A DNA stretch of 64,000 nucleotides from Candidatus Pacebacteria bacterium CG_4_9_14_0_2_um_filter_40_15 (lineage in GTDB: Bacteria > Patescibacteriota > Microgenomatia > UBA1400 > PJMF01): NCBI GenBank assembly GCA_002788675.1, contig PFRS01000005.1, positions 199,767 to 263,766 on the forward strand, given 5' to 3'. Shown one piece after another: positions 5,098 through 43,704 of this stretch. The position numbers were made by a program, and so were the translations under genes. The stretch's first letter is position 1. Each line of letters opens with the position of its first letter. The notes under the pieces are model-generated. The model was not told the origin of the DNA. It ran no database searches and saw nothing but the letters and a program-made list of their open reading frames with translations.

Positions 5098-5185
5098 TGT
5101 ATTTAGTTTAACACTAATCTTTTTGATTTGTCGGGTGTTTGGGACGATGTTGGAACTAATTTGAAAAGAAGCTATACTTACATAC

Positions 5186-5404: not shown

Positions 5405-5583
5405 AAAGTCAGTGTCAACAGTTTGGGACGATGTTGAAACTTTTTTTGTTCAAGACCAGTTAATTTAGAGTGCTGTTTCTAGTCCGCATATTTTATCTTC
5501 AAATCTGAGATACATGGATTCGATTTTGAACTGATGTTATACTTAGTTAAGTCCTAAGTATGTAAATATAAAAACAAAAAATT

Positions 5584-6492: not shown

Positions 6493-6587
6493 TTTTGGAT
6501 TTTATAAGTTTCATGCTGTTAGCAGAGAGAAGTGCAAGCAATTTACTTACAATAGTTGGTGCATTTCAGGAAAGCTGATAAAATATT

Positions 6588-6607
6588 TACATTGATATTT
6601 CAATGTA
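6588..6607 (-). terminator. Hairpin (TACATTGA-tatt-TCAATGTA) plus U-rich tract immediately 3' of tRNA-Pro
   Basis: Perfect 8-bp inverted repeat. It is followed on the minus strand by AAUAUUUUAUC. Confidence 0.5.
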
Positions 6608-6620
6608 TTTTTACTAAATG

Positions 6621-6694
6621 TCGGGTTGACTGGACTCGAACCAGCGACCTCACGCACCCCATGCGCGCACTCTAGCCATCTGAGCTACAACCCG
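6621..6694 (-). tRNA. tRNA-Pro (anticodon GGG)
   Basis: The reverse complement folds as a cloverleaf. Acceptor CGGGUUG/CAACCCG with C1:G72 and discriminator A, which are proline identity elements. D arm GCUC/GAGU. Anticodon stem CGCGC/GCGUG with loop AUGGGGU (U33, G37). T arm GCUGG-UUCGAGU-CCAGU. No encoded CCA. Confidence 0.85.
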
Positions 6695-19842: not shown

Positions 19843-22800
19843 GTGACCGAACGTACTACCGATACCACTGTTCAGACACCTGTTCAACTCTCAGAAACAT
19901 TTGAATCTGCAGAATCTCTTTCGCCGCTTGAATTGTATGAACAAAAACGCTTTGCTGACTTGTTTTCTGTGTTCCCAACACTTCCAGAGGCTGCAAAACA
20001 AACCACATTACAACTACTTGCTCAAAAAGAGACTGTTCGACTGCTTGCCACCTACTTTGACCTCCTTGAACTCGATGCTGCAAATCTGGAATATTTGTTT
20101 GGGAACTGTGTAACTTTTGAAACCTGTACGTATTTTTTTGAAAATCTTACCCAAACCACCTTCACCTATGATGAAATCATTGCAACGCTCTTAAAAGTTA
20201 ATACTCAATTAGTAATTCTTGCTTTTCATAACCCTACTGCATTAAGTGCAAAAACCATTGAACTTCTCTCACAAGAAGGACATGACTACTCACATACTTT
20301 TGATCGCCTCATTGATTCCTGTACTAATGATGGAAAAATCGCAATACTTACACATTGGTTAGCTACGTACGAGTACGATACATTAGAGTCATGTATTGAG
20401 AAAACAGTGCACATTCCTCGCCCCTTAGTTGACAAACTGCAATCAATTCTACCCATAGAAGATTTTTTGTTTCATGTTAGTCGTTACGAAAGTTTTGACC
20501 ATGCGTCAGTTTTTGCAAAACTTTCTAAAGCTAATAAACTCTATGAACTGTATTCGTGTGCTCGCTATTTCCCAGAATGTAGCGAGACATTTTATTCTGA
20601 ACAACTGACTGAACACCCTGAGCATGAGATACTTTTAGTTACAAACTTTTCAAATTTCAGACATGATTCAGTCTTAGCTGATATTGAGCAAAGTATCTCA
20701 GCAAACAATTCTAAACATTTTGATGCAGATCGAAAATTAAGAATTCTATTGAATGATCAAATCCCACCTTTTACTTCTGTTACAGATCAGGAAGAGCTCT
20801 TTACCCTTTTAGCAACCCCAAAAACTGTGAGTAGGTGCCTAGCAATTGCCCTATCTACAAAACATTTTAATCTGATTCCACAAAGTGAACTTTTGGTAAG
20901 AATTGCAGGAATTCAAAATGGATACAGTGCACTCTACGATCATATAACAAATCCTTCATATGAATCAGGTATTCATTCAATACCTAATTCACTCTTTCAG
21001 AAATTGTTACTATTCGGTGGCCAAGACAGCTATACTCTCTTTAACAAAACAATTTTAAGTAAAATCGATAATTGGGATCAAAAAATGACTGCACAATTTT
21101 TTGAAGCTCAAAATCTAACTGAATATATATCTTACAAGATGTACTATTTTACAGAGGTAGAGAGCGATTTCTTTATTCGTAATTTTCCAGAAACTGAATT
21201 AGCTTCTGCAGTATATCGACATATACTTTGGGCAAAAAAAGTCTTCACAAAGGACGAGGTCTTCTTTTATCTAAAAAAACACGAAGATTACTCATTTCAT
21301 CAAATGTTGACCTTTGGAAATGAATCCCTCAAAACGTACATAGGAGAGACTGCAACCGATACAGAGTTGAGAGATGCTTTTGATGTAACCACAAAAGAAG
21401 GAGAACACGCTTTTCTCTACTTCAAAAGTAAGTATGTAGTACAGTCAGAACAACTGACTGTTAGTGATCGCATTGAAATTATTTTGGCAGAAGTTCAAAA
21501 CAAAGGCACCCTGCTTTTTGAAATACTCTATAATCAACCAGATCAACTAACCTATACAGACTTACAAGATGTTCTTAAAGTTTATCCAAACCTGTTTACA
21601 TTCAACCAATTTAGTAGATTTATTCATTGCCTTAAATGGGAAACATTCCCAACATCTTTTTTTCAAAAGGTACTAGCTCAAGCAAGTAGTGATAAAAAAT
21701 TTGAAGAAATCATTAGTTGTTTGCCCTGGATTCTCACCCATCTTTCTCCAGTTGTTCGAGAGTCTTTAACAACTGAAATATCAGAAAGCATTGCTGCATG
21801 CGAGCAAAAAGATATTTTTAATATGGTGGAATACTATCTCTCAATATCACGAATTGATGTGGCAGTTTTTATTGTTTCAGAGTTTGCGAAAATACAAGAG
21901 AGCCAAGATTTTTTTCAGCTACTCAGACTCCAAGTGGGAACTGAAAAAATTTCTAAAATAATGCAAAAGCTACTTGAAGAAGAAAATTTTGAGCAAGCAC
22001 ATATACTGCAAAAAAAGAGTAATATCTTCACTCTTGATGATTCGCATCTTTCACTCCCTTCAGAAACCCCTACTGAAAATTCAAAAGATACACTTTCCAC
22101 AATTAAGCGAGATGTAGAAACTATCGATCTTTTTAAAGATTTTGGCCTCTTTTATGCACATAAGTTTTTAGAGTATGAATTAGCACAATTGCATAACCAA
22201 CTTACTTTTCCAAGAACAATTGATCATAATTTTTTGGTTACTCAGCCACAAGAATACAGCTCAACAATACATAGGGCGAGTCTCGATCATATCGAAAAAT
22301 TTTTGGAAAATCAGGCAGAAGCACATACTCAAAAAGTATTACATACCCTGACACAACAACTTGTTGTAGCAACTGATTTTCATACATTCTCACAAGATAA
22401 CTTGCGCAATACAAAAGATGCCTACCTCATGGTGCCTCAACTACCCCAACTCTTACATACTAAATCTGATCTAGTACTAGCATTACAAAAACACATTAAA
22501 GTCTATGAAAAAATTGACAGAAAAGATTGGATGATGATTGCGATGGCTGCATATAGACTCGTCCTCCCAAATGCAAAAGAAAATGCTTCATTTTTACTTG
22601 ACCTTATTACAGATCTTGAACATGGGTCTGGATTTATTTTTTCTAGAGGGTACTACGAAAAATTCACTCTCAGTGACAACGAATACTCTCATAACCAATA
22701 TCGTGCCTTTCTGAGCTTCAAATCATCATGTACTTCCTTTACTGATTGGATTTCACACCTAAGATCTCACAACTATGTCCCGGAACCCCAACTAAAAGAC

Positions 22801-22869
22801 CTAGAAAGTATTTATAAAGCAATCCAACATCTTAAAACCGCCCCAACGCGCGCAAAAGGCTATGAATAA
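19843..22869 (+). CDS. Large hypothetical cytoplasmic protein (1008 aa), no recognisable domains
   Basis: Uninterrupted 3-kb ORF, aromatic/Leu-rich, with no TM. The only N-terminal start is GTG at 19843, with no SD and TATACT 11 nt upstream. The start is uncertain. Confidence 0.55.
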   Translation: MTERTTDTTVQTPVQLSETFESAESLSPLELYEQKRFADLFSVFPTLPEAAKQTTLQLLAQKETVRLLATYFDLLELDAANLEYLFGNCVTFETCTYFFENLTQTTFTYDEIIATLLKVNTQLVILAFHNPTALSAKTIELLSQEGHDYSHTFDRLIDSCTNDGKIAILTHWLATYEYDTLESCIEKTVHIPRPLVDKLQSILPIEDFLFHVSRYESFDHASVFAKLSKANKLYELYSCARYFPECSETFYSEQLTEHPEHEILLVTNFSNFRHDSVLADIEQSISANNSKHFDADRKLRILLNDQIPPFTSVTDQEELFTLLATPKTVSRCLAIALSTKHFNLIPQSELLVRIAGIQNGYSALYDHITNPSYESGIHSIPNSLFQKLLLFGGQDSYTLFNKTILSKIDNWDQKMTAQFFEAQNLTEYISYKMYYFTEVESDFFIRNFPETELASAVYRHILWAKKVFTKDEVFFYLKKHEDYSFHQMLTFGNESLKTYIGETATDTELRDAFDVTTKEGEHAFLYFKSKYVVQSEQLTVSDRIEIILAEVQNKGTLLFEILYNQPDQLTYTDLQDVLKVYPNLFTFNQFSRFIHCLKWETFPTSFFQKVLAQASSDKKFEEIISCLPWILTHLSPVVRESLTTEISESIAACEQKDIFNMVEYYLSISRIDVAVFIVSEFAKIQESQDFFQLLRLQVGTEKISKIMQKLLEEENFEQAHILQKKSNIFTLDDSHLSLPSETPTENSKDTLSTIKRDVETIDLFKDFGLFYAHKFLEYELAQLHNQLTFPRTIDHNFLVTQPQEYSSTIHRASLDHIEKFLENQAEAHTQKVLHTLTQQLVVATDFHTFSQDNLRNTKDAYLMVPQLPQLLHTKSDLVLALQKHIKVYEKIDRKDWMMIAMAAYRLVLPNAKENASFLLDLITDLEHGSGFIFSRGYYEKFTLSDNEYSHNQYRAFLSFKSSCTSFTDWISHLRSHNYVPEPQLKDLESIYKAIQHLKTAPTRAKGYE

Positions 22870-23639: not shown

Positions 23640-24809
23640 ATGATAGTTTTTAATTCTGTATACCGCACCTTCGATCCAGATGACTCTGGTTTAAAGGATA
23701 TTTCATTTACCATTGACCCTGGTGAACTTGTTATGATCACAGGCCACTCTGGTAGTGGAAAAACTACCATCATGCGCCTGCTTACTAAAGAGTACACTCC
23801 AAATAAAGGTGAGATTAGTTTTGATGAACAAAATCTTTCCAAGATTAAAAAAAGCAAACTCCATGAACACAGACGAAAAATTGGCGTCGTCTTCCAGGAT
23901 TATCGCCTAATTCCAGAAATGAATGTCTGGGAAAATATTGCACTGCCTTTAGCCATTACCGGTAAAAAAGATACTGAAATTGCCGAGCGCGTAACAGATT
24001 TACTTAATCTGATTCAACTTCCGGAGAAAGCTCATCTCTTCCCAAGTCAGCTTTCAGGTGGAGAAGCACAACGTATTAGTATCGCTCGAGCACTTGCAAA
24101 TGCTCCTAGAGTTATTTTTGCTGATGAACCAACGGGAAATCTCGATCAAGATACCTCACAATCCATTGCTCATTTACTCAAGCAAATAAATGAATTGGGA
24201 ACAACATTGATATTTGCTACCCATGACCCCAAAGTTCTCTCGATATTTTCTGATAAACGTCATATTAACTTAAAAAATGGCACCGTCGAGTTTGATACCG
24301 GTGAAAAGAAACCAAATTCAGCTAAAAAAGACTCAAAAAATGAAGATAAAGATACTGATAAGAAAGCTTCAGAAAAAGAAGGATCCACTAATAAAAAATC
24401 AGCAAATATCACAAAAAGCTCATCTAAAGAAAGTTCTGTGAAGAGTGAAACTACTACTGGCACTTCAGAACCTGAATCAAAGGATACATCAGAAAAAGAT
24501 ACAAAAGAAGAAAAATCAGAGAAACCAGCAAAAAAATCTGGTGGCTTGTTATCTCGCTGGTTTGGCTCAAAAGAATCAAAAACTGCAACTGAAAAAACTA
24601 ATGCAGATGGAAATGATCTCGATATCGAGATGAGATTAGTCGAGACAGATTCAAAAACTGAAGACACTAAAAATGATGACAAGACATCTGTCACAATGAA
24701 GGATGAGAAAACTTCCAAAAAGATAAATACTGCAAATAAATCTGATATTGATGCAGAAAAATCTTCAAATGATACATCAAAACACAAATCATCCAAGAGC
24801 AAAAAGTAA
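23640..24809 (+). CDS. ftsE: Cell-division ABC ATPase FtsE with ~165-aa low-complexity C-terminal extension
   Basis: Walker A GHSGSGKTT, signature LSGGEAQRISIARAL and Walker B IFADEPTGNLD lie within the first ~220 aa. The remainder is a K/S/E/D/T-rich disordered tail. Confidence 0.85.
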   Translation: MIVFNSVYRTFDPDDSGLKDISFTIDPGELVMITGHSGSGKTTIMRLLTKEYTPNKGEISFDEQNLSKIKKSKLHEHRRKIGVVFQDYRLIPEMNVWENIALPLAITGKKDTEIAERVTDLLNLIQLPEKAHLFPSQLSGGEAQRISIARALANAPRVIFADEPTGNLDQDTSQSIAHLLKQINELGTTLIFATHDPKVLSIFSDKRHINLKNGTVEFDTGEKKPNSAKKDSKNEDKDTDKKASEKEGSTNKKSANITKSSSKESSVKSETTTGTSEPESKDTSEKDTKEEKSEKPAKKSGGLLSRWFGSKESKTATEKTNADGNDLDIEMRLVETDSKTEDTKNDDKTSVTMKDEKTSKKINTANKSDIDAEKSSNDTSKHKSSKSKK

Positions 24810-24812
24810 CCT

Positions 24813-25682
24813 ATGAACTCACTCACCGCCGCCCTCACCACAATCCGCAGATCTCCCTACCAGGCTTTGGTCTCGATTCTTATGGTCAGTGTTACCTTTT
24901 TTGTTGCTTATATCTTTAGTTTTTTCATTGCTGGCGCTAACGAAGTACTGAGTTACTTCGAGACGCAGCCACAAATTATTGCCTTTTTCGAACTTGAAAC
25001 CCCGAGTAGCAGCATTGATTCGCTCAAAAAAAAGATGGAGAGTCAGTGGTATGTCGATTCAGTCAAAATTGTTACCCAAGATGAAGCTCTGAAAATTTAT
25101 CAAGAAGACAATAAAACTGATCCACTCCTTCTGGAGTTAGTCACAGCTGACATTCTGCCAGCTAGTATCGAAGTAGCAGCTAAAGATCTGAATTCCCTTG
25201 TTCTTGTAAAAGATGAACTCGAAAAAGCTCCAGATATTGAAGATGTCGTTTATCAAGAAGATATTGTAAAAACACTTGGTTCTTGGACACAATCTGTCCG
25301 TATGATTGGCGCTGGTGCCATTCTCACGTTAGCAACCATTTCATTCTTAATAATCATGATTGTGGTTGCCATGAAGGCAGCACATAAACGAGGTACCATT
25401 AAAATAATGCGCTATATAGGCGCAACGTCTTGGTATATTAAGCTTCCATTTCTCCTTGAAGGCGTGCTCTATGGCATGATTGGTTCACTTCTTGGTTTTG
25501 GCGCCACTATGGCCGCTCTTATGTATGCTTCCCCTTGGGTTTCTGAATTTTTAGGTGAAGTTCACATATTCCCTATACCGCCCGAATTCTTAGCTGCCCA
25601 AGTAGGAGCTGGCACAGTAGCTGGAATGCTTCTTGGCGGCTTTGCTGGTCTCTTGGCAGTACAAAGATTAATAAAGCAGTAG
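24813..25682 (+). CDS. ftsX: Cell-division permease FtsX
   Basis: 4-TM FtsX topology with a periplasmic loop. It follows ftsE by 3 nt. Confidence 0.8.
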   Translation: MNSLTAALTTIRRSPYQALVSILMVSVTFFVAYIFSFFIAGANEVLSYFETQPQIIAFFELETPSSSIDSLKKKMESQWYVDSVKIVTQDEALKIYQEDNKTDPLLLELVTADILPASIEVAAKDLNSLVLVKDELEKAPDIEDVVYQEDIVKTLGSWTQSVRMIGAGAILTLATISFLIIMIVVAMKAAHKRGTIKIMRYIGATSWYIKLPFLLEGVLYGMIGSLLGFGATMAALMYASPWVSEFLGEVHIFPIPPEFLAAQVGAGTVAGMLLGGFAGLLAVQRLIKQ

Positions 25683-25684
25683 CT

Positions 25685-26971
25685 ATGCGAACTCACTCCA
25701 CTGGCTTTTTCCACACTTGGCCGTCACTTTTGCGGAAGTTTTCTATTGGAATTTTTGCGGCACTCTGTATTTTTTCCACACTGAGTATTACTCCAACTTC
25801 TGTTTCTGCAGAGGCATGTGACGAAAACTGTAACAAAGATGCAGATGATAGCGAATACCTCCAATGTATTTCTCGTAAGAAGGAATGTCTAGAAAAAGAA
25901 CTTTCAGTCATTTCAGATCAAAAGAACACCCTCAACAACACTATTAGCCTGATTAGTGGCAACATTAGAGTTCAAGAGATACAAATTTCTCAGACAACGG
26001 CAGAAATCCGTGCACTCGAAAAAGAAATCACCGAACTCGACCAACGCATCGGTGGCCTCAACATTTCCCTTGATCGCCTCACCTCACTGTTAGTCAATAG
26101 AATTCGCAGCCAATATAAGCGCAATCGCGTCTCACCACTAGCACTCTTTACCAAGGCAGATACTTTCAACTCATTCCTTACACAGTATAAATACATTGGT
26201 CATGCTGGTGAACAAACCGCCAAGGCCATGAGCCTCGCCGAGTCCCAACGACTACTCTATGACGATCAAAAAACACTCAAAGAGGAAAAACAAACCGAGT
26301 TCCAGGCAAAAACTAACCAATTGCAAAGTCAGAAAACCGAACTCGACCGACAAAAATCAGAACAGACCGCTATCTTGGGAGTTACCAAAAATAATGAGGC
26401 AAAGTATCAAGAACTCCTGGCTGAGGCCCAAAAAGAACTCCAACAAATTGCCGACGCTGCCAACGTAGTTATCCGTGAAGGCAATGGAGTGCCCGTTAAA
26501 AAGGGTGAAACCATTGGTACTATGGGAAATTCAGGATTCTCGACCGGAGCCCACCTGCACTTTGGCGTGTATCGTTACAGTGCAGATCAGTTTGGTCAAA
26601 CCTCAAGTTGGGGGTGGTACTATAGTAACTACGTAAATCCAATTGAAAAACTCGGACCTACATCTGTTACTTGGGATACAGGCTGTGGCCATGATCCCAG
26701 TGGCAATCAGACATCAGGAAACGGCAGCTGGCAGTGGCCAATGACATCATCACGCATTACCCAAAACTATGGTTCAAATACCTGTTACAACTGGATGTAC
26801 GGCAATAAGCCACATCCTGCAATCGATATTGTTGGCATGGGTTCTAAATCTGTCACCGCCGTTGAGGATGGCGAAGCCTACTTCTGCAGGAACTGCCTCA
26901 ATGATGGAGGTAATGGTGTTTTCGTTTTTCATAGTGACAACTACATGACTTTGTACTGGCATCTTCAGTAA
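25685..26971 (+). CDS. Peptidase M23 family murein hydrolase/activator (EnvC-like) with coiled coil and Cys-rich C-terminal domain
   Basis: Signal peptide and a long coiled coil. M23 motif GTMGNSGFSTGAHLHFGVY (HxH). There is an extra ~130-aa C-terminal domain with 6 Cys. Confidence 0.8.
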   Translation: MRTHSTGFFHTWPSLLRKFSIGIFAALCIFSTLSITPTSVSAEACDENCNKDADDSEYLQCISRKKECLEKELSVISDQKNTLNNTISLISGNIRVQEIQISQTTAEIRALEKEITELDQRIGGLNISLDRLTSLLVNRIRSQYKRNRVSPLALFTKADTFNSFLTQYKYIGHAGEQTAKAMSLAESQRLLYDDQKTLKEEKQTEFQAKTNQLQSQKTELDRQKSEQTAILGVTKNNEAKYQELLAEAQKELQQIADAANVVIREGNGVPVKKGETIGTMGNSGFSTGAHLHFGVYRYSADQFGQTSSWGWYYSNYVNPIEKLGPTSVTWDTGCGHDPSGNQTSGNGSWQWPMTSSRITQNYGSNTCYNWMYGNKPHPAIDIVGMGSKSVTAVEDGEAYFCRNCLNDGGNGVFVFHSDNYMTLYWHLQ

Positions 26972-34149: not shown

Positions 34150-37100
34150 ATGATACAGCGTATTACCCAACACTTTCGACGTTTTTTTACACCTCATATT
34201 ATGCTGTTAGCCTTGTGCTGGCTTGCTATTGTGTTTACGAATTTCAATCCGGGCACTTGGCTCATTGGTTGGGATAATCTCATTCCTGAAGTAAATATTT
34301 TCCTAAACCTGTACAAAACAATCTTTTCTGCTTGGCAAAGTTGGCAAGGTCTGGGTATAGTTGGTGGCATTGCTCATGCTTCAGAACTGAGCCGAGAACT
34401 CATACTTCTCCCCTTTGCACTTATTCTTCCTGGTGAACTCATTAGATACATCTGGACTTTTGCAATGCTGTTAGTTGGAATGCTTGGTACCTACCACTTA
34501 GCACTTTGGCTACTAAAAGAGTCTAAGCATTCAACATGGATAGCCTTAGTAGTAGCTGTAGCCTATACTTTTAATTTAGCAACTATTCAAAACTTTTTTG
34601 TACCATTAGAAGCCTTCTCAACTTTTTGGGGCTTTTTTCCTCTATTTTTATTGACTGCTTTTAAGCTGGTCAAAAATCCTAGCAAAAAAAGTATCTTTTT
34701 CTTTGCGCTGATACAGTTTCTTGGAGCTTCTGCCTTTCACGTCCAAACTATGTTTATCGTGTATTCACTTGTGTTAGGTATTTTCACGCTAGCAAGTCTA
34801 ATCAGCTCTCGTGGACAAAACATTAAGGCACTTTGTGTACTTTGGATAACACTCATTCTTGTGCATTTTTATTGGCTCGCACCAGTTGGCTACTTTACCC
34901 TTACAAATGCACAGCAAACTGTGGATTCGAAACAAAATAGTATTTCCACACAAGAAGTTTTTGAATCTAATAAAGCCGCAGGATCACTTACCAATATACT
35001 CAGACTAAAGGGATATTGGTTTAACTATACAGATAGCAACCCAAATGGGACCCAGTATCTTATGGATGCATGGGAAAAACATACCAACTCACTGCCGGTT
35101 GCTGTGGGAAGTATCTTGATAAGTCTTGTTGGTATTGGGGGATATATTCTCTATCTTAGATCCTTGGATGCAGATACACATGTTCGCACAGAATATATCG
35201 TGTTCTTCCTCACAGCAACACTGCTAGCAATTTCAATGCTCACAACAGGTAAAGGCATAGTTGGGCTAGGCTATACAGTCATTACAAAATTACCGCTCCT
35301 TGGACAAGTCTTTAGAGTTCCATTCACCAAGTGGTCTGTGGTACTTTCACTCTTCATTTCAATTGGAATTGGCTATTTTCTCAGCTATGTTACTGCACAA
35401 AAAAAACTATTGGTTATGGGTGCGACAGCACTCTTTATTGCATTGGCTAGCATTTTTAGCGCAGCGCCTCTCTTTAGTGGCGGACTCTTTTATAGTAACG
35501 TACAACTTTCACTGCCCAGTGCCTATTCTCACTTATTCGAAGAACTCTCAACACAACCAACCACTAATCGGATTCTCTACCTTCCTTTTGATGACTTTTG
35601 GGGATGGATGAATCATGATTGGGGCTACCGAGGAAGTGGTTTTATTTGGTACGGAATAAAGCAACCAATCATTGACAGAAATTTTGATGTGTGGAGTGTA
35701 AGAAATGAGACACTCTACACACAACTTCAACAAACACTCCAAACCAAAAACACAGCCGAGACAGAGATTTTACTTGATAAATATGACATTTCTCTACTTT
35801 TAATCGACACCAGCATACAAGCCAATCAAAAAAGAAAACAAGAAACTGCCGATACTATTCAAGCATTAGAAAAAACTGGGTACATATCTAAAATTTGGGA
35901 AGACGACTTTCTCAGTCTCTATAAAACAACAATTGAATCAGGTGAATTACAGGTAACTCATTCAGAAGGTATCCAACCACTTGAAAAAAGACTCATTACT
36001 GATACTGTGGCATATGCTGGTAGCTACTACTTTGACTCAAATAGTCAGCTGCATCTGCCCCTACAGAATCTACTCACTGAATCAATTTCAAGTCAGCGAA
36101 TGCAAGTTCAAAATGATCAGATTGTAGTACCACTTCTGAACCAAGCATCAAAAATCACCATCCCCTCATTAGAAGGAATGAAACAAATGTATGGTATTCA
36201 GCTGATTGGAAATAAGCTCACTATTGAACCAATCGCACCTCTTCACTTGCTAGATACAAAAACAAATACAACCCGAGACATCTACTCTTTGACAAAAATG
36301 GAGTACACTTTCGATACCTTAGGAAAGAAAATTTATCTAGATATCAACGACACTCTTTTCACATTGAATGAAACTGAGTATCGACAAATTATTCTTCCAG
36401 AAATAATTTCTCAACCAGTTACCATGAAAATATCTAGTGCTGAAGATATTTCCACAGTTGATGAAAATACGTTACAAAGCACTCGATACCAAGAATTACA
36501 TGTCCCCTCAACGCTTTGGCAGGACTTGCTGAGCGAGAAAATACTTGAATCCGGACCAGATGAGCAATTGTTACTAGCAACTCTGAGTGAGCTCTTACCC
36601 TTTGACGCATCAGATACTGTTGCAAATAATTGTGATGCACTTTCTCGGGGAACTACAGCTAAACAAATAACTGACCAACATACCAGTGTGTATACTTCTA
36701 ATGATTTTGGCATCTTCTGTGATGGAAGTTCTACTCAAAAAATGCAAGCAAACCAAGACCATTTCCTAAAGATAACCGCCACTAATACAACTGGCTTGCC
36801 ACTCAGATTTTATATTAAAAATAATGCTACAGAAACTATTTTGCTAGAACAGGTACTCACTGATTCAGCTAACTACTTCTTCGTTCCTCAAGACATTTCT
36901 AACGGTAACCTATCAGTGAATATCCAAAATAAATCCACCGGAACTCTGAGTAAAAATACTCTTATAGACGTCAGTCTCCATGAACTCCCTATTCATTTAG
37001 CACTACTGGGGAAAATTAAAGTCAGTCCAGTCTCTTCAAATGCTGTTGAGACACAGTCAACAGAAGAATCGCCATCAGATCTTTCAGTATCAAAATTTAG

Positions 37101-37482
37101 TACATTCAAAATCGGTAATTTTTTATACTTCATTTCATTCGCATCTCAATCTGAACAAGAAAAAGACGCAACCCTATTGACTGTATCTCAGAGCTATGAC
37201 GCCGGATGGATCGCATTCTCTTATTCAGCATTCCCAACCCCGCTACGACATGTGGAAGTAGATGGTTGGAAAAATGGATGGGAGATTCAAAATGGAAAAA
37301 ATGCACTCTTCATACTCTATTGGCCACAATTAGGTGTCTTTTTGGGATACATTTTGCTATTTATAGTGTTAAAACACGTTTACTTAGGTGTGAAATTAGA
37401 AAAAAGTGAAAATACTCAAAAAAAACGACGGGCACGACAACTGTACCGGGTGCCTAAAAAAATTCTGGGTGGCAAAAAATAA
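34150..37482 (+). CDS. 1110-aa polytopic membrane protein: N-terminal ~13-TM domain + ~650-aa extracytoplasmic domain + C-terminal TM; putative GT-C type (YfhO/ArnT-like) glycosyltransferase
   Basis: The topology is inferred from hydrophobic helices in aa 1-440 and one near the C-terminus. It is adjacent to the GtrB-like gene. Motif-level identity is not established. Confidence 0.4.
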   Translation: MIQRITQHFRRFFTPHIMLLALCWLAIVFTNFNPGTWLIGWDNLIPEVNIFLNLYKTIFSAWQSWQGLGIVGGIAHASELSRELILLPFALILPGELIRYIWTFAMLLVGMLGTYHLALWLLKESKHSTWIALVVAVAYTFNLATIQNFFVPLEAFSTFWGFFPLFLLTAFKLVKNPSKKSIFFFALIQFLGASAFHVQTMFIVYSLVLGIFTLASLISSRGQNIKALCVLWITLILVHFYWLAPVGYFTLTNAQQTVDSKQNSISTQEVFESNKAAGSLTNILRLKGYWFNYTDSNPNGTQYLMDAWEKHTNSLPVAVGSILISLVGIGGYILYLRSLDADTHVRTEYIVFFLTATLLAISMLTTGKGIVGLGYTVITKLPLLGQVFRVPFTKWSVVLSLFISIGIGYFLSYVTAQKKLLVMGATALFIALASIFSAAPLFSGGLFYSNVQLSLPSAYSHLFEELSTQPTTNRILYLPFDDFWGWMNHDWGYRGSGFIWYGIKQPIIDRNFDVWSVRNETLYTQLQQTLQTKNTAETEILLDKYDISLLLIDTSIQANQKRKQETADTIQALEKTGYISKIWEDDFLSLYKTTIESGELQVTHSEGIQPLEKRLITDTVAYAGSYYFDSNSQLHLPLQNLLTESISSQRMQVQNDQIVVPLLNQASKITIPSLEGMKQMYGIQLIGNKLTIEPIAPLHLLDTKTNTTRDIYSLTKMEYTFDTLGKKIYLDINDTLFTLNETEYRQIILPEIISQPVTMKISSAEDISTVDENTLQSTRYQELHVPSTLWQDLLSEKILESGPDEQLLLATLSELLPFDASDTVANNCDALSRGTTAKQITDQHTSVYTSNDFGIFCDGSSTQKMQANQDHFLKITATNTTGLPLRFYIKNNATETILLEQVLTDSANYFFVPQDISNGNLSVNIQNKSTGTLSKNTLIDVSLHELPIHLALLGKIKVSPVSSNAVETQSTEESPSDLSVSKFSTFKIGNFLYFISFASQSEQEKDATLLTVSQSYDAGWIAFSYSAFPTPLRHVEVDGWKNGWEIQNGKNALFILYWPQLGVFLGYILLFIVLKHVYLGVKLEKSENTQKKRRARQLYRVPKKILGGKK

Positions 37483-39010: not shown

Positions 39011-39286
39011 ATGACTAAATCACAATTGGTAGACGTTATCGCAAAAAAAGCGCATCTTACAAAAAAAGCTTCCACTGAGGCAATCGAGGCTCTCTTTGAA
39101 GAGGTTACTCGTTCACTTGCAAAAGGTGACAAAGTTGTTATTTCAGGATTTGGAACTTTTTACGTGAGCCAAGTTCGCGATAAACAAGTTGTTCCATTCG
39201 GTGATGAATCAAAAAGACAAACAATCCGAGGTCACAGAGTTATTAACTTCCGTGTAGGAAAACCTCTTAAAAAAGCTGTGTGGTAA
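39011..39286 (+). CDS. hup: DNA-binding protein HU
   Basis: MTKSQLVDVIAKKAHLTKKASTEAIEALFEEVTRSLAKGDKVVISGFGTF...; matches the HU/IHF fold. Confidence 0.85.
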   Translation: MTKSQLVDVIAKKAHLTKKASTEAIEALFEEVTRSLAKGDKVVISGFGTFYVSQVRDKQVVPFGDESKRQTIRGHRVINFRVGKPLKKAVW

Positions 39287-39310
39287 ACGCTACGTTACTT
39301 TAAAAATGTA

Positions 39311-39340
39311 AGAGCCCTTCCACACGAAGGGCTCTTTTTG
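39311..39340 (+). terminator. Rho-independent terminator (AGAGCCCTTC-cacac-GAAGGGCTCT + T5)
   Basis: 10-bp stem with a U-run. Confidence 0.8.
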
Positions 39341-39394: not shown

Positions 39395-40195
39395 GTGTTA
39401 AAAAAATACCTTGCAATCTATCGCTACATGTTTATTCGCTCACTCCAATTTAGAACTGAGTTAGTCATTTACGTGCTCCTCGATATTCTGCCATTTTTTG
39501 TGCTCTTCTTTGTGTGGCAGGCAGCATTTTCTGGTAAAACTGAGATTAATTCATTTACGCTTCCCCAAATCACACAGTACTACTTCTTAGTAATGATTAT
39601 TGAGCGCGTCACTTCTACCTACTTTGAGAACTGGCGTGCAACAGAAATTAGAGAAGGAAAAATTGATTACTTTCTTACTCGTCCATTCTCCTACATCAAC
39701 GACGTCTTTTCAAAAGATGTAGGTGGCAAACTGGTTAGTCTTGCTATTAGTTTGCCTGGTCTGGCCGTTGCGTTTTTTTTAATTAGTTTGGTGCTCCCTG
39801 TGGCGCCACTTTCAGTGGCGCCACACCAAATCTTTATCTTCATTTTCTTTATGATTACGGGATACCTCATCCAGTTCATGATTGCGTTGTGGATTGTATT
39901 GCTTACTTTTTGGTTTGAAGGCTCATCCGGGCTTGAGCATTTTAAATGGATTTCAGTTTCACTTTTCAGTGGAGCTATGATTCCCACAACATTCATGCCA
40001 ACTTGGATTCAATCGGTGTACCAATTTTTACCACTCAAATATATTTTTGCTGTTCCGATTACCTATCTTCAAGGGACGCTTTCACTTACTCCAGGTATGT
40101 TCCTTGAATTAGCAATAGCACTACTCTGTATGTTTGGTATAACCAGAGTGTTCTGGCACTACGCGCTCTATCAATATAGTTCTGCAGGTGGATGA
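39395..40195 (+). CDS. ABC-2 type transporter permease, paralog 1 (COG4587/COG3694-like)
   Basis: 6 TM. The C-terminal YQYSSAGG motif is shared with the other paralogs. Confidence 0.6.
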   Translation: MLKKYLAIYRYMFIRSLQFRTELVIYVLLDILPFFVLFFVWQAAFSGKTEINSFTLPQITQYYFLVMIIERVTSTYFENWRATEIREGKIDYFLTRPFSYINDVFSKDVGGKLVSLAISLPGLAVAFFLISLVLPVAPLSVAPHQIFIFIFFMITGYLIQFMIALWIVLLTFWFEGSSGLEHFKWISVSLFSGAMIPTTFMPTWIQSVYQFLPLKYIFAVPITYLQGTLSLTPGMFLELAIALLCMFGITRVFWHYALYQYSSAGG

Positions 40196-40995
40196 GGTTT
40201 ACTATGAAAAAATACTGGCACCTTTTTTGGCATTTTAGAAAAGTCGACTTCATGCGCATGATGGAGTATCGAACAGACTTCGTCTTTTGGCTCATTGTCT
40301 CACTTATGTGGACTGCATTTAACTACTTCTTCTTCTTTCTTATTTTTGGAACAACTGAAAGTGTGGCTGGATGGTCACACCAGGAATTAGTAATTGTACT
40401 TTCGTTCTTTACCATGATAGACGCACTAACCTGGTCCGTGTTTTACGCCAACATGACACAATACACTCAATCTGTTTTTTCTGGTGAACTCAGCAAATAC
40501 TTACTTCAACCGGTAAGTACAATTTTTCTACTCACAACACAACGAATGAGTTACAACAACATTCCACGATTCCTCATTGGACTCATTGTATTAGTCATTA
40601 CGGCTGTAAAGATGGATATTTCCGTCTCTATGATGGAACTAGCGCTCATTGTAGTTCTTTTTATATGCGGGGCGGTTTTCATCTATTCTGGTTGGTTCAT
40701 TCTTGCCACACTCTCGCTTTGGGTAGACAAGCTGCAAAATATCAATGATATTATGCCCGGCTTCCGTCGTGTATACCAAATCCCTAGACAAGTATTCACT
40801 GGGGTAACTGCTCTCACCTTCACCTTTATTTTCCCCTTAGGCCTGATTACATCACTTCCAAGCGAAATACTCACTGGTAAAAATCCACCAGTGTTGCTTA
40901 TTCTTTATTTTATCGTAGCTACAACTTGTCTGGCTTTAACAGCACGTGCATTTTTTAAGTATTCAATTAAACAGTATTCAAGTGTCGGCGGATAA
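40192..40995 (+). CDS. ABC-2 type transporter permease, paralog 2
   Basis: 6 TM with N-terminal KKYWHLF and C-terminal KQYSSVGG. It overlaps the upstream gene by 4 nt. Confidence 0.6.
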   Translation: MRFTMKKYWHLFWHFRKVDFMRMMEYRTDFVFWLIVSLMWTAFNYFFFFLIFGTTESVAGWSHQELVIVLSFFTMIDALTWSVFYANMTQYTQSVFSGELSKYLLQPVSTIFLLTTQRMSYNNIPRFLIGLIVLVITAVKMDISVSMMELALIVVLFICGAVFIYSGWFILATLSLWVDKLQNINDIMPGFRRVYQIPRQVFTGVTALTFTFIFPLGLITSLPSEILTGKNPPVLLILYFIVATTCLALTARAFFKYSIKQYSSVGG

Positions 40996-41025
40996 CCGCT
41001 ATACTACTAAGGTAACAAAGGATCA

Positions 41026-42027
41026 ATGTCAAAACCACCAATAATCTCTATCACAAACTTAAAGAAACATTTTAAGGTCTATAAAAAGAAACCCGGACTT
41101 TGGGGTTCTATTCAATCGCTCTGGCATCGCGAGTACGAAGTTGTTAAAGCTGTTGACGGCATTTCTTTTGATATTGCTGAAGGTGAGATTGTTGGCTTTA
41201 TTGGTATGAACGGAGCTGGTAAAACTACAACGCTTAAAATGCTATCTGGGCTCTTATACCCAACCGAGGGTCAACCAAGTGTGCTAGGCTACAACCCTTG
41301 GGAACGAAAAGCATCGTTCCAAAAACAATTTGCACTGGTCATGGGACAAAAAAATCAGTTGTGGTGGGATCTTCCAGCAGTTGAAACATTTTATCTTAAT
41401 AAAGCCATCTATGAAATTCCCGACGAACAGTTCGAAAAGACACTCAAAAAATTGGTAAAACTTTTGGATGTGGAAGATATTATTCGCATTCAAGTCCGTA
41501 AACTTTCACTTGGTCAACGTATGAAGTGTGAGCTCATTGCAGCACTCCTTCACAATCCAAAGGTCCTCTTCCTAGATGAGCCAACCATAGGGCTCGATGT
41601 GGTCATGCAAAAAACACTTCGAGACTTTATTAAAGCTTACAACAAAGAATTTGGCGCAACAATTATCTTAACCAGTCACTACATGGATGATGTCAAAGAA
41701 CTCTGTGAACGTGCAATCATTATTGATCATGGTAAAAAGATCTTCGACGGAAAACTGCAAGATATTATTGATAAGTATGCTCGGAATAAAAAACTCTCAC
41801 TCGTCTTCTCAGAACCTGTTACCAAAAAAGACCTGCAAGCATTTGGTGATCTTAAAGAGTTTAGTGACGACGGTTCTCACTACACAGCTACCCTACTGGT
41901 GGCAAGAAAAAAGGCTACAGCAGTCGCAGCACAAGTCCTTTCTAAATTTCCTGTCGTAGACGTCACAATCGAAGAACCACCAATTGAGGCAATTATTAGA
42001 GAAGTTTTTTCAAAAGAAGGTTCATGA
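41026..42027 (+). CDS. ABC transporter ATP-binding protein (uncharacterised exporter family, COG4586-like)
   Basis: Walker A GMNGAGKTTTLKM, signature LSLGQRMKCELIAAL and Walker B LFLDEPTIGLD, with a C-terminal extension domain. Confidence 0.85.
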   Translation: MSKPPIISITNLKKHFKVYKKKPGLWGSIQSLWHREYEVVKAVDGISFDIAEGEIVGFIGMNGAGKTTTLKMLSGLLYPTEGQPSVLGYNPWERKASFQKQFALVMGQKNQLWWDLPAVETFYLNKAIYEIPDEQFEKTLKKLVKLLDVEDIIRIQVRKLSLGQRMKCELIAALLHNPKVLFLDEPTIGLDVVMQKTLRDFIKAYNKEFGATIILTSHYMDDVKELCERAIIIDHGKKIFDGKLQDIIDKYARNKKLSLVFSEPVTKKDLQAFGDLKEFSDDGSHYTATLLVARKKATAVAAQVLSKFPVVDVTIEEPPIEAIIREVFSKEGS

Positions 42028-42839
42028 AAACCACAACAATTAAGAAGTACTGGGCACTCCTCACAATCTCCTGGGAAAATGGGTTGGTGTATCGCATGTC
42101 AGTTTTTATGTGGCGCCTGCGGCGCTTCTTGGCCGCTGTTATGGCATTAACTATTTGGTCGACAATCTATACCAGTGCTGCTCCCGAAGCCACCACCTTT
42201 GGGTATGCCCAGTCAGACATGATCAGCTATATTTTTCTTATTTCAATTCTCCAAAGTTTGGTACTGGCAACGGCACTCAATGGCCTGGCCCAGGATGTGT
42301 ATAGCGGTGCAATCAGCAACCAACTTCTTAAACCACTAAGCCTTACAGTTTACTTAATCATGCAAGACCTTGCAGATAAACTTAAAAATGCGTCAGCGTT
42401 GCTCTTTGAAATTATTGCATTATTTCTCATCTTTAAGCCTGTAGTTCACTTGCCAGATCTTCCCACTCTTGGTATTTTTATTGTTTGGACACTGGCAGCA
42501 ATTGTCCTTAATTTCTGTATTTCACTACTCTTTGGAAGTCTTGGCTTCTGGAGTCCTGAAACTTGGGCTCCACGATTTTTGTTTTATACGTTACTCCAAT
42601 TTACTGCTGGGCAGCTTTTTCCACTTGATGTTTTACCCACAATTTTTCAAAAAGTTATGTACGCAACACCATTTCCTTATCTATCGTTTGTACAAACACA
42701 ATTATTTTTACAAAAACTCACACTATCAGAAATTCAACTTCATTCGATGGTACTCCTCGGCTGGGTTGCAGTATTAGCCTTTCTTGCACAAGGTATTTGG
42801 AAAAGGGGACTGCGTGACTATGACGCAGCAGGCAGATAA
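42024..42839 (+). CDS. ABC-2 type transporter permease, paralog 3
   Basis: KKYWALL N-terminus, 6 TM and C-terminal RDYDAAGR. Confidence 0.6.
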   Translation: MKTTTIKKYWALLTISWENGLVYRMSVFMWRLRRFLAAVMALTIWSTIYTSAAPEATTFGYAQSDMISYIFLISILQSLVLATALNGLAQDVYSGAISNQLLKPLSLTVYLIMQDLADKLKNASALLFEIIALFLIFKPVVHLPDLPTLGIFIVWTLAAIVLNFCISLLFGSLGFWSPETWAPRFLFYTLLQFTAGQLFPLDVLPTIFQKVMYATPFPYLSFVQTQLFLQKLTLSEIQLHSMVLLGWVAVLAFLAQGIWKRGLRDYDAAGR

Positions 42840-43633
42840 TGCACAGCTACACAAAATATTGGCATGTATGGAAAACTATTGCCATTAATGCACTGCAAAC
42901 AACTTTTGTAAATCGAGGATCAAACGTATTCTTTTTTATTGGGAAGGCACTACGACTTGCTTTCATGCTTCTCTTTCTTTGGATGCTTAGAAACACTGTC
43001 AAAACAATTGGCGGCTATACCAGCGATGAAATGGTTGTATTTTTTTTGGTTTATCAATTTATTGATACCGTCCCACAAATACTCTATCGTGGTGTCTACC
43101 TCTTTAGTAACCTGGTACGCACCGGTGAATTTGACTTTATGCTCCTACGACCAATCAATCCCTTATTTGGGGCTTTAACAGGCAAACCAGACATCAATGA
43201 TGCACTCTTTCTCATTCCCTCCACTGCCTTAAGCTTATGGATCATCTCACAATTATCACTAACCATAACAACTGCATCGGTAGCGCTCTTTTCGATATTG
43301 ATGCTTAATAGTATTATTCTTGCCACAGCGCTCCATATTTTAGTCCTAGTTGTCGGCATTTTAACCACTGAGGTTGATGGCGTTATATGGATGTATCGAG
43401 ATGTATCTCGAATGGCACAATTCCCTGTTTCAATCTACTTCGAGCCGCTGAGATCCCTACTCTACTTTATCGTCCCAGTAGGAATTATGGTAACTATCCC
43501 TGCTGAAGTACTTTTGGGTAAACACTCTCTGTATGTGGTTCTGTTTAGTTGTCTATTTAGTGGTGGATTCATGTTCCTTTCACTTAAACTATGGAATTGG
43601 AGTTTAACCAAGTATCAGAGTGCGAGTAGTTAA
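42839..43633 (+). CDS. ABC-2 type transporter permease, paralog 4
   Basis: TKYWHVW N-terminus, 6 TM and C-terminal TKYQSASS. Confidence 0.6.
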   Translation: MHSYTKYWHVWKTIAINALQTTFVNRGSNVFFFIGKALRLAFMLLFLWMLRNTVKTIGGYTSDEMVVFFLVYQFIDTVPQILYRGVYLFSNLVRTGEFDFMLLRPINPLFGALTGKPDINDALFLIPSTALSLWIISQLSLTITTASVALFSILMLNSIILATALHILVLVVGILTTEVDGVIWMYRDVSRMAQFPVSIYFEPLRSLLYFIVPVGIMVTIPAEVLLGKHSLYVVLFSCLFSGGFMFLSLKLWNWSLTKYQSASS

Positions 43634-43676
43634 TCACAGTGAGGCATTTGCCAATTTTTTGAATGATATAACAAAA

Positions 43677-43704
43677 CAGGCCCCGAGTTTTCTCGAGGCC
43701 TGTT
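43677..43704. terminator. Hairpin CAGGCCCCGAG-tttt-CTCGAGGCCTG between convergent ABC locus and rpsI
   Basis: 10/11-bp inverted repeat with TTTT in the loop. There is no trailing U-run. Confidence 0.4.

What the first reader, a model, noticed from the sequence alone, without database searches (positions are those of the whole stretch)
39395..43633. ABC-2 exporter locus with four paralogous permease genes surrounding a single ATPase
The gene order is perm1-perm2-ATPase-perm3-perm4, with 4-nt or 1-nt overlaps throughout (translational coupling). All four permeases share an N-terminal KYW motif, six TM helices and a conserved C-terminal Y-x-S/A-A/V-G-G/R/S ending (YQYSSAGG, KQYSSVGG, RDYDAAGR, TKYQSASS). 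The usual COG4586/COG4587/COG3694 arrangement is one ATPase with two permeases. Here the permease pair is duplicated, implying a heteromeric or alternative-substrate exporter. The substrate is unknown; the ABC-2 family exports lipids, polysaccharides, peptides and drugs. The locus lies immediately after the glycosylation region and HU.
Basis: seen in the sequence. Interest (0 to 1): 0.5.

Follow-up and report, generated by a model that had tools for sequence, protein, structure and literature searches.

The report
One ABC motor, two permease pairs
A tiny-genome (Patescibacteria) bacterium carries an uncharacterised ABC-2 exporter operon in which a single ATPase gene is flanked by two anciently diverged pairs of membrane-subunit genes. 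In its relatives such pairs come and go as units (one, two or three pairs per ATPase gene).

Summary
Five co-directional ORFs lie at 39395-43633: permease P1, permease P2, ATPase, permease P3, permease P4. All four permeases pass Pfam PF06182 (ABC2_membrane_6). They are only 20-28% identical and share no nucleotide similarity, so this is not an assembly artefact.

P1 resembles P3 (type A) and P2 resembles P4 (type B). The locus is therefore A-B-NBD-A-B.

In 20 complete loci from close relatives (Paceibacteria, ATPase at least 72% identical), 13 have four permeases, 5 have six and 2 have two. Three pair lineages exist: a constant downstream pair D and two optional upstream pairs, U1 and U2. A relative with identical synteny lacks exactly the P1-P2 pair. 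Every locus outside Patescibacteria has one pair per ATPase gene.

The P1 model (pLDDT 93) has the type V ABC-exporter fold. The ATPase carries an ABCA/NosF-like C-terminal domain.

Best reading, inferred rather than shown: one ATPase homodimer alternately powers two heterodimeric permease pairs with different substrates. The nearest characterised family appears to be the viologen exporter EvrABC (TCDB 3.A.1.141), but I could not test that by sequence. The substrate is unknown. I rate it a new variant of a known kind, of moderate interest.

The parts
39310..39336 (.). Bidirectional terminator-like hairpin (11 bp stem, 6 G-C pairs) after the HU gene. It is the upstream boundary of the transporter operon.
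   Evidence: terminator scan. HU gene at 39011-39286 confirmed by Pfam.
39395..40195 (+). P1: type-A permease of the optional upstream pair (lineage U1). PF06182, 266 aa, GTG start.
   Evidence: Pfam 89.5 bits. A-type HMM 272 against B-type 74 bits. AF2 model pLDDT 93 with type V exporter fold. The conserved M-x-K-Y N-terminus favours the GTG start over the ATG at 39428.
40192..40995 (+). P2: type-B permease of the upstream pair U1. PF06182, 267 aa. Overlaps P1 by 4 nt.
   Evidence: Pfam 142.4 bits. B-type HMM 309 against 67 bits.
40996..41025 (+). 30-nt spacer with an AAAGGA ribosome-binding-like site 5 nt before the ATPase ATG. This is the only junction without an overlap.
   Evidence: Sequence read.
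41026..42027 (+). The single ABC ATPase (NBD), 333 aa. NBD core about residues 1-251, plus a C-terminal alpha/beta domain about residues 254-329.
   Evidence: ABC_tran 93.8 bits. DrrA-like subfamily 206.6 bits, below its 312 cut-off. Nearest solved sequences are ABCA3/ABCA1/ABCA4 NBDs. AF2 pLDDT 83.7. Full-length fold matches TM_1403, NosF and ABCA NBD plus R-domain, TMq 0.66-0.78.
42024..42839 (+). P3: type-A permease of the constant downstream pair (lineage D). PF06182, 271 aa. Overlaps the ATPase by 4 nt.
   Evidence: Pfam 70.8 bits. A-type HMM 314 against 61 bits. Falls in the D clade that contains only Patescibacteria.
42839..43633 (+). P4: type-B permease of the downstream pair D. PF06182, 264 aa. 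Overlaps P3 by 1 nt.
   Evidence: Pfam 123.2 bits. B-type HMM 328 against 58 bits. D clade.
43676..43703 (.). 12-bp hairpin with one mismatch (ACAGGCCCCGAG-TTTT-CTCGAGGCCTGT) between P4 and the convergent rpsI gene. Likely the downstream operon boundary.
   Evidence: Sequence read. Not called by the scan because it has no T run. rpsI/rplM on the minus strand.

Best explanation
The locus is one operon encoding a type V (ABC-2 fold) ABC exporter system of the PF06182 / COG4586-4587-3694 kind. The source is a Paceibacteria (Patescibacteria/CPR) genome.

**Shown:**
- There is one ATPase gene and four intact PF06182 permease genes.
- The permeases form two A-B pairs: P1-P2 (lineage U1) and P3-P4 (lineage D).
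- The two pairs are deeply diverged.
- Relatives gain and lose A-B pairs as units. Combinations D, U1+D, U2+D and U1+U2+D all occur, always around one ATPase gene.

**Inferred:**
- Each A-B pair forms a heterodimeric membrane domain, and the ATPase forms a homodimer.
- The same ATPase dimer docks alternately on P1-P2 or on P3-P4. This would use the elements conserved in all permeases: the N-terminal K-Y interface helix, the G-x5-L-x2-P coupling segment between TM2 and TM3, and the C-terminal Y-x-S/A-A-G tail.
- The cell would thus make two transporters with different substrate pathways from one motor. Relatives with six permeases would make three.

P3-P4 is the core transporter and P1-P2 is an accessory specificity module. 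The substrate is unknown. By analogy with the only characterised family member, and with the fold class, it is most likely an amphipathic or cationic small molecule or a lipid-like envelope compound, moved outward.
For: **Gene content and typing**
- ORFs and Pfam assignment.
- A/B typing and pairing: P1-P3 E = 8e-11 and P2-P4 E = 6e-14. Each A/B HMM scores 270-330 bits on its own type and 58-75 bits on the other.

**Pairs behave as units**
- A-type and B-type neighbour-joining trees are congruent. Both give three clades in Patescibacteria, D, U1 and U2, so the pairs co-evolve and move together.
- Among 20 complete Paceibacteria-like loci: 9 are U1+D, 4 are U2+D, 5 have six permeases and 2 have D only. 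There is always a single ATPase gene.
- L005 keeps the synteny (large membrane protein, LTD, VanZ, HU), but HU is followed directly by the ATPase. This is a clean presence/absence of the P1-P2 unit.

**One pair is the norm outside Patescibacteria**
- All those loci that show their permease genes have one pair per ATPase gene. When the system is duplicated there, the ATPase is duplicated too (L070: NBD-A-B-NBD-A-B).

**All four permeases are constrained**
- dN against L003 is 0.18-0.23 with dS saturated. The ATPase has dN 0.086.

**Conserved positions**
- Positions conserved in at least 70% of 85 A and B permeases are Y5, R20, G88, L94, P97, F172, W254 and Y261, plus prolines 197, 213 and 221.
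- Going by the type V topology, the elements predicted to be cytoplasmic score highest in mean conservation: C-terminus 0.50, TM4-5 loop 0.43, coupling segment 0.41. The TM helices score 0.27-0.33.

**Fold**
- P1 matches Wzm, KpsM, TarG, NosY, ABCG2, ABCH and PmtCD.
- No second related ATPase lies within the window. The only other ABC ATPase is FtsE.
Against: - No physical evidence exists for any complex. Stoichiometry and partner choice are inferred from gene order and phylogeny.
- Only 64 kb of this genome and about 6 kb on each side in relatives were seen. A second ATPase of this family elsewhere in the genome cannot be excluded.
- Higher conservation of the ATPase than of the permeases is normal for any ABC system. 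It does not specifically support sharing.
- Conservation of the cytoplasmic elements is also expected simply from common ancestry.
- I assigned the membrane sides from the helix order of the model and the known type V topology. I did not measure them on coordinates.
- The Foldseek E-values for the permease are weak (4e-3 at best), although every top hit is a type V exporter.
- The trees are simple neighbour-joining trees without support values.
Confidence: 0.6

Rival explanations
1. Combinatorial assembly. The four permeases mix freely (A1-B1, A1-B2, A2-B1, A2-B2) on the one ATPase dimer, giving up to four transporters rather than two fixed ones.
For: All A and B types share the same conserved docking-type motifs. 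All five genes sit in one operon and would be made together.
Against: The A and B trees are congruent. A and B of a lineage are always adjacent and are gained or lost together; no locus has an unpaired A or B of a lineage. This argues for dedicated partners.
Confidence: 0.15
2. Redundant or dosage duplicates. Both pairs transport the same substrate, and the extra pair only adds capacity or robustness.
For: Both pairs are in the same operon, so there is no obvious differential regulation.
Against: The paralogues are only 20-28% identical, as far apart as homologues from different phyla. The TM helices are among the least conserved regions. Distinct lineages U1, U2 and D are each maintained under constraint across many genomes. 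Long-term retention of such divergent copies in 1-1.4 Mb genomes is hard to explain by redundancy.
Confidence: 0.1
3. The P1-P2 pair uses a different ATPase encoded elsewhere. Its position next to this ATPase is then only a matter of insertion site.
For: Only part of the genome was seen. In the neighbour-joining trees, U1 groups nearer the single pairs of Chloroflexi and Deinococcus than the D pair does, which would fit horizontal acquisition.
Against: In every Patescibacteria locus examined, the extra pairs lie directly beside the single ATPase gene. This holds upstream in Paceibacteria, as A-B-A-B-NBD in a Magasanikbacteria genome, and as NBD-A-B-A-B in another lineage. No ATPase gene ever accompanies them.
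Confidence: 0.1
4. Glycan or teichoic-acid exporter belonging to the neighbouring glycosylation region, in the manner of Wzm/Wzt or TarGH.
For: A PMT-like GT-C and two GT2 genes lie 5-10 kb upstream. The permease fold resembles Wzm, KpsM and TarG.
Against: The permeases match PF06182, not PF01061. The ATPase C-terminal domain resembles ABCA/NosF regulatory domains rather than the Wzt carbohydrate-binding domain. The HU gene and a strong terminator separate the operon from the glycosyltransferase genes. The synteny conserved in relatives is LTD-VanZ-HU-transporter-rpsI, not glycosyltransferases.
Confidence: 0.05

Closest known systems
EvrABC viologen exporter of Synechocystis PCC 6803 and TCDB family 3.A.1.141 (Ethyl Viologen Exporter / DUF990 family)
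   Same: One ATPase plus two different permeases of the DUF990 kind, with no fused domains. TCDB calls this the DUF990 family (PMC5417439). That DUF990 is the old name of PF06182 rests on my memory. Homologues of evrABC have been noted in Patescibacteria bins (PMC10469934).
   Different: EvrABC has a single A/B pair. Here there are two pairs, and three in some relatives, around one ATPase gene. I could not test direct sequence similarity to EvrA/B/C, because the sequences were not retrievable with these tools. The substrate here is unknown.
natA-like / COG3694 / COG4587 three-gene operons of Firmicutes controlled by ppGpp riboswitches
   Same: The same three-component make-up. The paper states that the function is unknown (PMC6003355). 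Firmicute loci L028 and L029 found here have the NBD plus one A and one B.
   Different: No riboswitch or any other Rfam family lies upstream of the operon here. Those operons have one pair, not two.
Shared (multitask) ABC ATPases: MceG with the YrbEA/B permease pairs of Mce1-4 in mycobacteria; MsmX/MsiK/MsmK with several sugar importers; FhuC in S. aureus
   Same: One ATPase energises several different heterodimeric permease pairs (titles and abstracts of PMC9947336, PMC7658222 and PMC10147376, listed). This is the working principle proposed here.
   Different: Those are importers or Mce systems of other folds. Their ATPase gene is usually unlinked from the permease operons. Here the system has a type V exporter fold and all partners sit in one operon.
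Type V ABC exporters with solved structures (Wzm-Wzt, KpsMT, TarGH, NosFY, ABCG2, ABCH-9C, PmtCD)
   Same: The permease model has the same fold, with TM-scores of 0.5-0.64. The ATPase with its C-terminal domain superposes on NosF and on ABCA NBD plus R-domain.
   Different: No sequence-level relative of the permeases has a solved structure. Most bacterial examples have homodimeric membrane domains, whereas this family always has two different permeases.

Membership tests
Pfam PF06182 ABC2_membrane_6 (ABC-2 clan) | Full-length match to the family HMM above the gathering score (22 bits) | tested here: met
   P1 89.5, P2 142.4, P3 70.8 and P4 123.2 bits. Each covers profile positions about 1-229 of 229.
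Pfam PF06182 ABC2_membrane_6 (ABC-2 clan) | Type V ABC-exporter membrane fold: N-terminal interface helix, six TM helices, re-entrant helices between TM5 and TM6 | tested here: met
   P1 only. AF2 pLDDT 93.1, pTM 0.89. All top Foldseek PDB hits are type V exporters, although the E-values are weak. The other three permeases are inferred by homology.
TCDB 3.A.1.141 EVE / DUF990 family (EvrABC) | Permeases of the DUF990 (= PF06182) family | tested here: met
   for PF06182. The family name 'DUF990 family' comes from PMC5417439. The equivalence DUF990 = PF06182 is from memory.
TCDB 3.A.1.141 EVE / DUF990 family (EvrABC) | One ATPase plus two non-identical permeases (A and B types) | tested here: met
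   A/B typing. Here the A-B unit is present twice.
TCDB 3.A.1.141 EVE / DUF990 family (EvrABC) | Direct sequence similarity to Synechocystis EvrA, EvrB and EvrC | not tested
   The Evr sequences could not be fetched with the available tools. No source annotation among the hits used the name.
TCDB 3.A.1.141 EVE / DUF990 family (EvrABC) | Export of viologens / quaternary ammonium cations | not testable with these tools
   Needs transport or resistance assays.
Shared-ATPase ABC systems (MceG/YrbEAB, MsmX, MsiK type) | More permease pairs than ATPase genes available to them | tested here: inconclusive
   One ATPase gene serves 2-3 pairs in every Patescibacteria multi-pair locus. Whole genomes were not scanned for further ATPases.
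Shared-ATPase ABC systems (MceG/YrbEAB, MsmX, MsiK type) | Physical or functional dependence of each permease pair on the same ATPase | not testable with these tools
   Needs pull-down, genetics or multimer modelling.
Wzm/Wzt- or TarGH-type glycopolymer exporters | PF01061-type permease forming a homodimer, an ATPase often carrying a substrate-binding C-terminal domain, and genes embedded in a glycan synthesis operon | tested here: not met
   The permeases match PF06182 only and come as two types. The C-terminal domain resembles ABCA/NosF regulatory domains. The operon is separated from the glycosyltransferase genes by HU and a terminator.
ppGpp-riboswitch-controlled natA/COG3694/COG4587 operons | ykkC subtype 2a (ppGpp) riboswitch in the 5' leader | tested here: not met
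   The Rfam scan of the window finds only one tRNA. The leader between terminator and start is only 58 nt.

The most novel reading that the evidence does not exclude
Paceibacteria carry, at a fixed chromosomal site between HU and the rpsI-rplM-rplQ-rpoA block, a modular ABC-2 system. One highly conserved ATPase acts as a common motor for interchangeable permease-pair cassettes (D always, U1 and/or U2 optionally). The cassette repertoire sets which compounds these reduced-genome, host-dependent cells can move across their membrane, for example host-derived lipids or envelope precursors. As far as I know, this would be the first in-operon shared-motor architecture described for type V ABC exporters. 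It would also be a compact way for minimal genomes to diversify transport.
Probability: 0.3. Interest if true: 0.6.

Novelty: new variant of a known kind. Interest (0 to 1): 0.4.

Why it matters
**An uncharacterised family.** PF06182 transporters are widespread but almost unstudied. I found one characterised member (EvrABC) and no solved structure.

**A natural experiment in partner choice.** The Paceibacteria loci hold one ATPase gene with one, two or three co-evolving permease pairs. This makes a basic question directly testable: how does an ABC ATPase recognise several membrane partners?

**A clue to transport in minimal genomes.** These bacteria have genomes of about 1 Mb (contigs of 1.0-1.4 Mb carry the locus) and, from general knowledge of the group, depend on other cells. 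It is notable that they retain four to six permease genes for a single system. The ATPase is 73-91% identical among the 120 best database hits. Both points suggest an important envelope or nutrient-exchange function. If the pairs have different substrates, cassette content could serve as a genomic marker of niche or host.

Tried and rejected
- **Assembly artefact or recent tandem duplication: rejected.** There is no nucleotide similarity between paralogues, and the locus recurs on many independent contigs.
- **'Some of the four are not ABC-2 permeases': rejected**.
- **NCBIfam for the permeases: uninformative.** The only hit was a sub-threshold drrB match for P1.
- **Profile searches of the PDB with A-type and B-type alignments.** There was no significant solved relative; the best was ABCH at E = 0.05.
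- **Rfam scan for a riboswitch upstream: nothing**.
- **Promoter scan: no enrichment over shuffles**, so it was not used.
- **dN/dS: not usable as a ratio.** dS is saturated even against the closest relative, so only dN values are reported. One search failed on a file path.
- **Literature searches.** Searches for PF06182, ABC2_membrane_6 and the COG numbers gave five papers. The only one I read for this (PMC6003355, the ppGpp riboswitch paper) calls COG3694 and COG4587 functionally unknown. The 'Patescibacteria ABC-2' search yielded nothing on this locus: I read only the top hit, which mentions generic ABC-2 K-numbers.
- **Prosecka et al. 2009 (EvrABC): not held in the library**.
- **Profile search with the A-type alignment, hoping for source names such as 'viologen exporter'.** Only generic ABC-2 names came back.
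- **Link to the glycosylation region: considered and rejected**.

Full report

Yes.
- P1: 39395-40195, GTG start, 266 aa
- P2: 40192-40995, 267 aa
- ATPase: 41026-42027, 333 aa
- P3: 42024-42839, 271 aa
- P4: 42839-43633, 264 aa

Three junctions overlap: P1/P2 by 4 nt, ATPase/P3 by 4 nt and P3/P4 by 1 nt. P2 and the ATPase are separated by 30 nt containing an AAAGGA site. Coupling is therefore not present throughout.

An 11-bp-stem terminator-like hairpin at 39310-39336 follows the HU gene. A 12-bp hairpin at 43676-43703 lies between P4 and the convergent rpsI gene. The five genes thus look like one operon.

All four permeases match Pfam PF06182 (ABC2_membrane_6) over the whole profile, at 70.8-142.4 bits against a cut-off of 22. 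The ATPase matches ABC_tran. Its nearest NCBIfam subfamily is DrrA-like, below that model's cut-off.

The quoted C-terminal endings are exact. The N-terminal motif is K-K-Y-L in P1 and K-Y-W in the other three.

**2. Paralogy**

The four permeases are 20-28% identical, with no nucleotide similarity beyond chance. The duplication is ancient and not an assembly artefact.

BLASTP pairs P1 with P3 (E = 8e-11) and P2 with P4 (E = 6e-14). I built HMMs from homologues in related loci. They separate two types cleanly: type A (P1, P3) and type B (P2, P4). Each HMM scores 270-330 bits on its own type and 58-75 bits on the other. The locus is A-B-NBD-A-B.

**3. Organism and synteny**

The ATPase is identical to a protein annotated in NCBI as Candidatus Pacebacteria (Patescibacteria/CPR). 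It occurs on many metagenome contigs carrying the same five genes.

Upstream lie a PMT-like GT-C, two GT2 genes, a 1110-aa membrane protein with no Pfam hit, an LTD protein, VanZ and HU. Downstream, on the other strand, lie rpsI, rplM, rplQ, rpoA, rpsD, rpsK and rpsM.

The block LTD-VanZ-HU-transporter-rpsI-rplM-rplQ-rpoA is conserved in relatives whose longest contigs reach 1.0-1.4 Mb.

**4. Comparative genomics**

I scanned one genome per species and metagenome contigs with the ATPase. I added context look-ups and typed all ORFs with the A and B HMMs.

*Close relatives.* Twenty non-redundant loci have an ATPase at least 72% identical to the window's, with both flanks visible:

| Permease genes | Loci | Which |
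|---|---|---|
| Four | 13 | window, L003, L009, L010, L011, L012, L013, L025, L053, L054, L056, L093, L095 |
| Six | 5 | L006, L008, L062, L092, L094 |
| Two | 2 | L005, L057 |

*Other Patescibacteria.*
- L016 (Magasanikbacteria): A-B-A-B-NBD
- L017: NBD-A-B-A-B
- L018, L019, L021 and L024 (Woesebacteria): plain NBD-A-B

*Outside Patescibacteria.* Every locus that shows its permease genes has one pair per ATPase gene. These include two Chloroflexi, Deinococcus, Bdellovibrionota, Alkaliphilus, a Bacillota MAG and a Granulosicoccaceae MAG, plus several unassigned metagenome contigs. L070 has two complete cassettes, NBD-A-B-NBD-A-B, so there the ATPase is duplicated along with the permeases. One Verrucomicrobiales locus (L022) showed the ATPase with no recognisable permease and was not followed up.

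*Trees.* Neighbour-joining trees of A-type and B-type permeases are congruent. Each shows three clades in Patescibacteria:
- **D:** P3/P4-like. It is the pair directly downstream of the ATPase in all Paceibacteria-like loci, and it contains only Patescibacteria.
- **U1:** P1/P2-like. It lies upstream and groups nearest the single pairs of Chloroflexi and Deinococcus.
- **U2:** a third pair, lying between U1 and the ATPase when both are present.

The combinations found are U1+D (9 loci), U2+D (4), six permeases (5) and D alone (2). Four of the six-permease loci are U1+U2+D. In L062 both upstream pairs look U1-like.

L005 has the same upstream synteny as the window, but HU is followed directly by the ATPase. 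This is a clean presence/absence of the P1-P2 unit between close relatives: the ATPase is 80% identical, P3 68% and P4 77%.

**5. Constraint**

Against orthologous loci the ATPase is 74-90% identical, while the permeases are 30-76% identical. Against the closest relative, L003, dN is 0.086 for the ATPase and 0.18-0.23 for each permease, with dS saturated. All four permeases are therefore maintained by selection, and none looks degenerate.

**6. Structure**

*Permease.*
- An AlphaFold2 model of P1, built from 115 aligned sequences, has pLDDT 93.1 and pTM 0.89.
- It shows an N-terminal helix (residues 2-17), six long helices and short helices between the fifth and sixth.
- All leading Foldseek hits in the PDB are type V ABC exporters: ABCH-9C, Wzm, KpsM, TarG, NosY, ABCG2, ABCG5/8 and PmtCD.
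- TM-scores are 0.5-0.64, but E-values are no better than 4e-3.
- Profile searches find no solved sequence relative of the permeases.

*ATPase.*
- The model has pLDDT 83.7 and an NBD core plus a C-terminal alpha/beta domain at residues 254-329.
- Over its full length it best matches TM_1403, NosF and the NBD plus regulatory domain of ABCA1, ABCA3, ABCA4 and ABCA7, with TMq 0.66-0.78.
- By sequence its nearest solved relatives are ABCA NBDs.

**7. Conserved positions**

Across 85 A and B permeases, the positions identical in at least 70% of sequences are (P1 numbering):
- Y5 in the N-terminal helix and R20 at the start of TM1
- G88, L94 and P97 in the segment between TM2 and TM3
- F172 in the TM4-5 loop
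- P197, P213 and P221 in the region between TM5 and TM6
- W254 and Y261 at the C-terminus

In the known topology of type V exporters, the N-terminal helix, the TM2-3 segment, the TM4-5 loop and the C-terminus face the cytoplasm and the ATPase. This is established knowledge, and I applied it to the helix order of the model. I did not measure it on coordinates.

Mean conservation is highest in those segments (0.41-0.50) and lower in the TM helices (0.27-0.33). This fits a common docking surface with diverged translocation paths. It is not proof, because shared ancestry alone would produce a similar pattern.

**8. Mechanism**

*Shown.* There is one ATPase gene and two (elsewhere one or three) co-evolving A-B pairs. 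All are intact and constrained, and the pairs are gained and lost as units.

*Inferred.* Each A-B pair forms a heterodimeric membrane domain. The ATPase homodimer serves each pair in turn. This gives two transporters that share a motor and differ in substrate.

This follows from the universal two-plus-two architecture of ABC transporters. It also has a precedent in shared ATPases such as MceG, MsmX and FhuC (papers listed).

I put this at about 0.6. The rivals are:
- free mixing of A and B subunits (0.15)
- redundancy (0.1)
- a second ATPase elsewhere serving P1-P2 (0.1)
- a glycan exporter tied to the neighbouring glycosyltransferases (0.05)

The last is contradicted by the Pfam family, the type of C-terminal domain, the terminator and the conserved synteny.

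**9. Comparison with the known**

The COG3694/COG4587 plus natA-like three-gene operon is recorded as functionally unknown in the ppGpp riboswitch paper (PMC6003355). No such RNA is present here.

[quoted passage not shown] Homologues of evrABC were noted in Ca. Microgenomatia bins (PMC10469934).

That DUF990 is the former name of PF06182 rests on my memory. I could not fetch the Evr sequences, so membership is supported by domain family and subunit composition only.

I found no paper describing loci with several permease pairs around one ATPase gene in this family.

**10. Verdict**

The finding is correct and its interpretation holds, with refinements. It is a lineage-typical, modular variant of a known but poorly studied ABC-2 family. 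The substrate is unknown, and the shared-motor mechanism is inferred, not shown. I rate it a new variant of a known kind, with interest 0.4.

Noticed in passing
window 23640-26971 (+): An FtsE-like ABC ATPase that is unusually long (389 aa) is followed by FtsX (FtsX_ECD plus FtsX) and an M23 peptidase. This is an FtsEX-EnvC-like division module. It is the only other ABC ATPase in the window.
   Followed up: partly
window 19843-22869 (+) and 34150-37482 (+): Two very large ORFs (1008 and 1110 aa) have no Pfam hit at all. The second is conserved in synteny upstream of LTD-VanZ-HU in relatives.
   Followed up: no
window 39395 vs 39428: Public gene calls disagree on the P1 start: GTG for 266 aa, or an internal ATG for 255 aa. 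The M-x-K-Y N-terminus conserved across A-type permeases supports the GTG start. Many database entries of 255 aa are therefore probably truncated.
   Followed up: yes
L092 1712-2857 and 4553-4987; L095 7183-7551; L008 7786-9040: In relatives, unrelated genes are inserted inside the transporter locus. L092 has a 381-aa minus-strand ORF between the U1 and U2 pairs and a NUDIX gene between U2 and the ATPase. L095 has a DUF559 gene between A and B of the downstream pair. L008 has a 1.25-kb gap between A and B.
   Followed up: no
L096-L099, about 3400-6650: In four similar contigs that resemble the Bdellovibrionota locus L027, the single-pair NBD-A-B cassette sits inside the cell-wall (dcw) gene cluster, between murE/murF-type ligase genes and ftsI/rsmH. 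An Abhydrolase_2 (phospholipase/carboxylesterase) gene directly precedes it. This may hint at an envelope or lipid-related substrate for the family.
   Followed up: no
L070 2001-7336: Two complete cassettes lie in tandem (NBD-A-B-NBD-A-B) on an unassigned metagenome contig whose ATPase is 50% identical to the window's. Here the ATPase was duplicated with the permeases, in contrast with the Patescibacteria solution.
   Followed up: no
L016 2714-6978 and L017 5998-10159: Other Patescibacteria lineages reach two pairs per ATPase with different gene orders: A-B-A-B-NBD in a Magasanikbacteria genome and NBD-A-B-A-B in another. This suggests rearrangement or independent origin of the multi-pair state.
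   Followed up: partly
and record titles: Several Patescibacteria genomes carrying this locus are labelled 'Pseudomonadales', 'Gammaproteobacteria' or 'Vitreimonas' in their public records. Their ATPases are 55-90% identical to the Pacebacteria one, and L003, L005 and L094 also share its LTD/VanZ/HU synteny. These are probably taxonomic mislabels.
   Followed up: no
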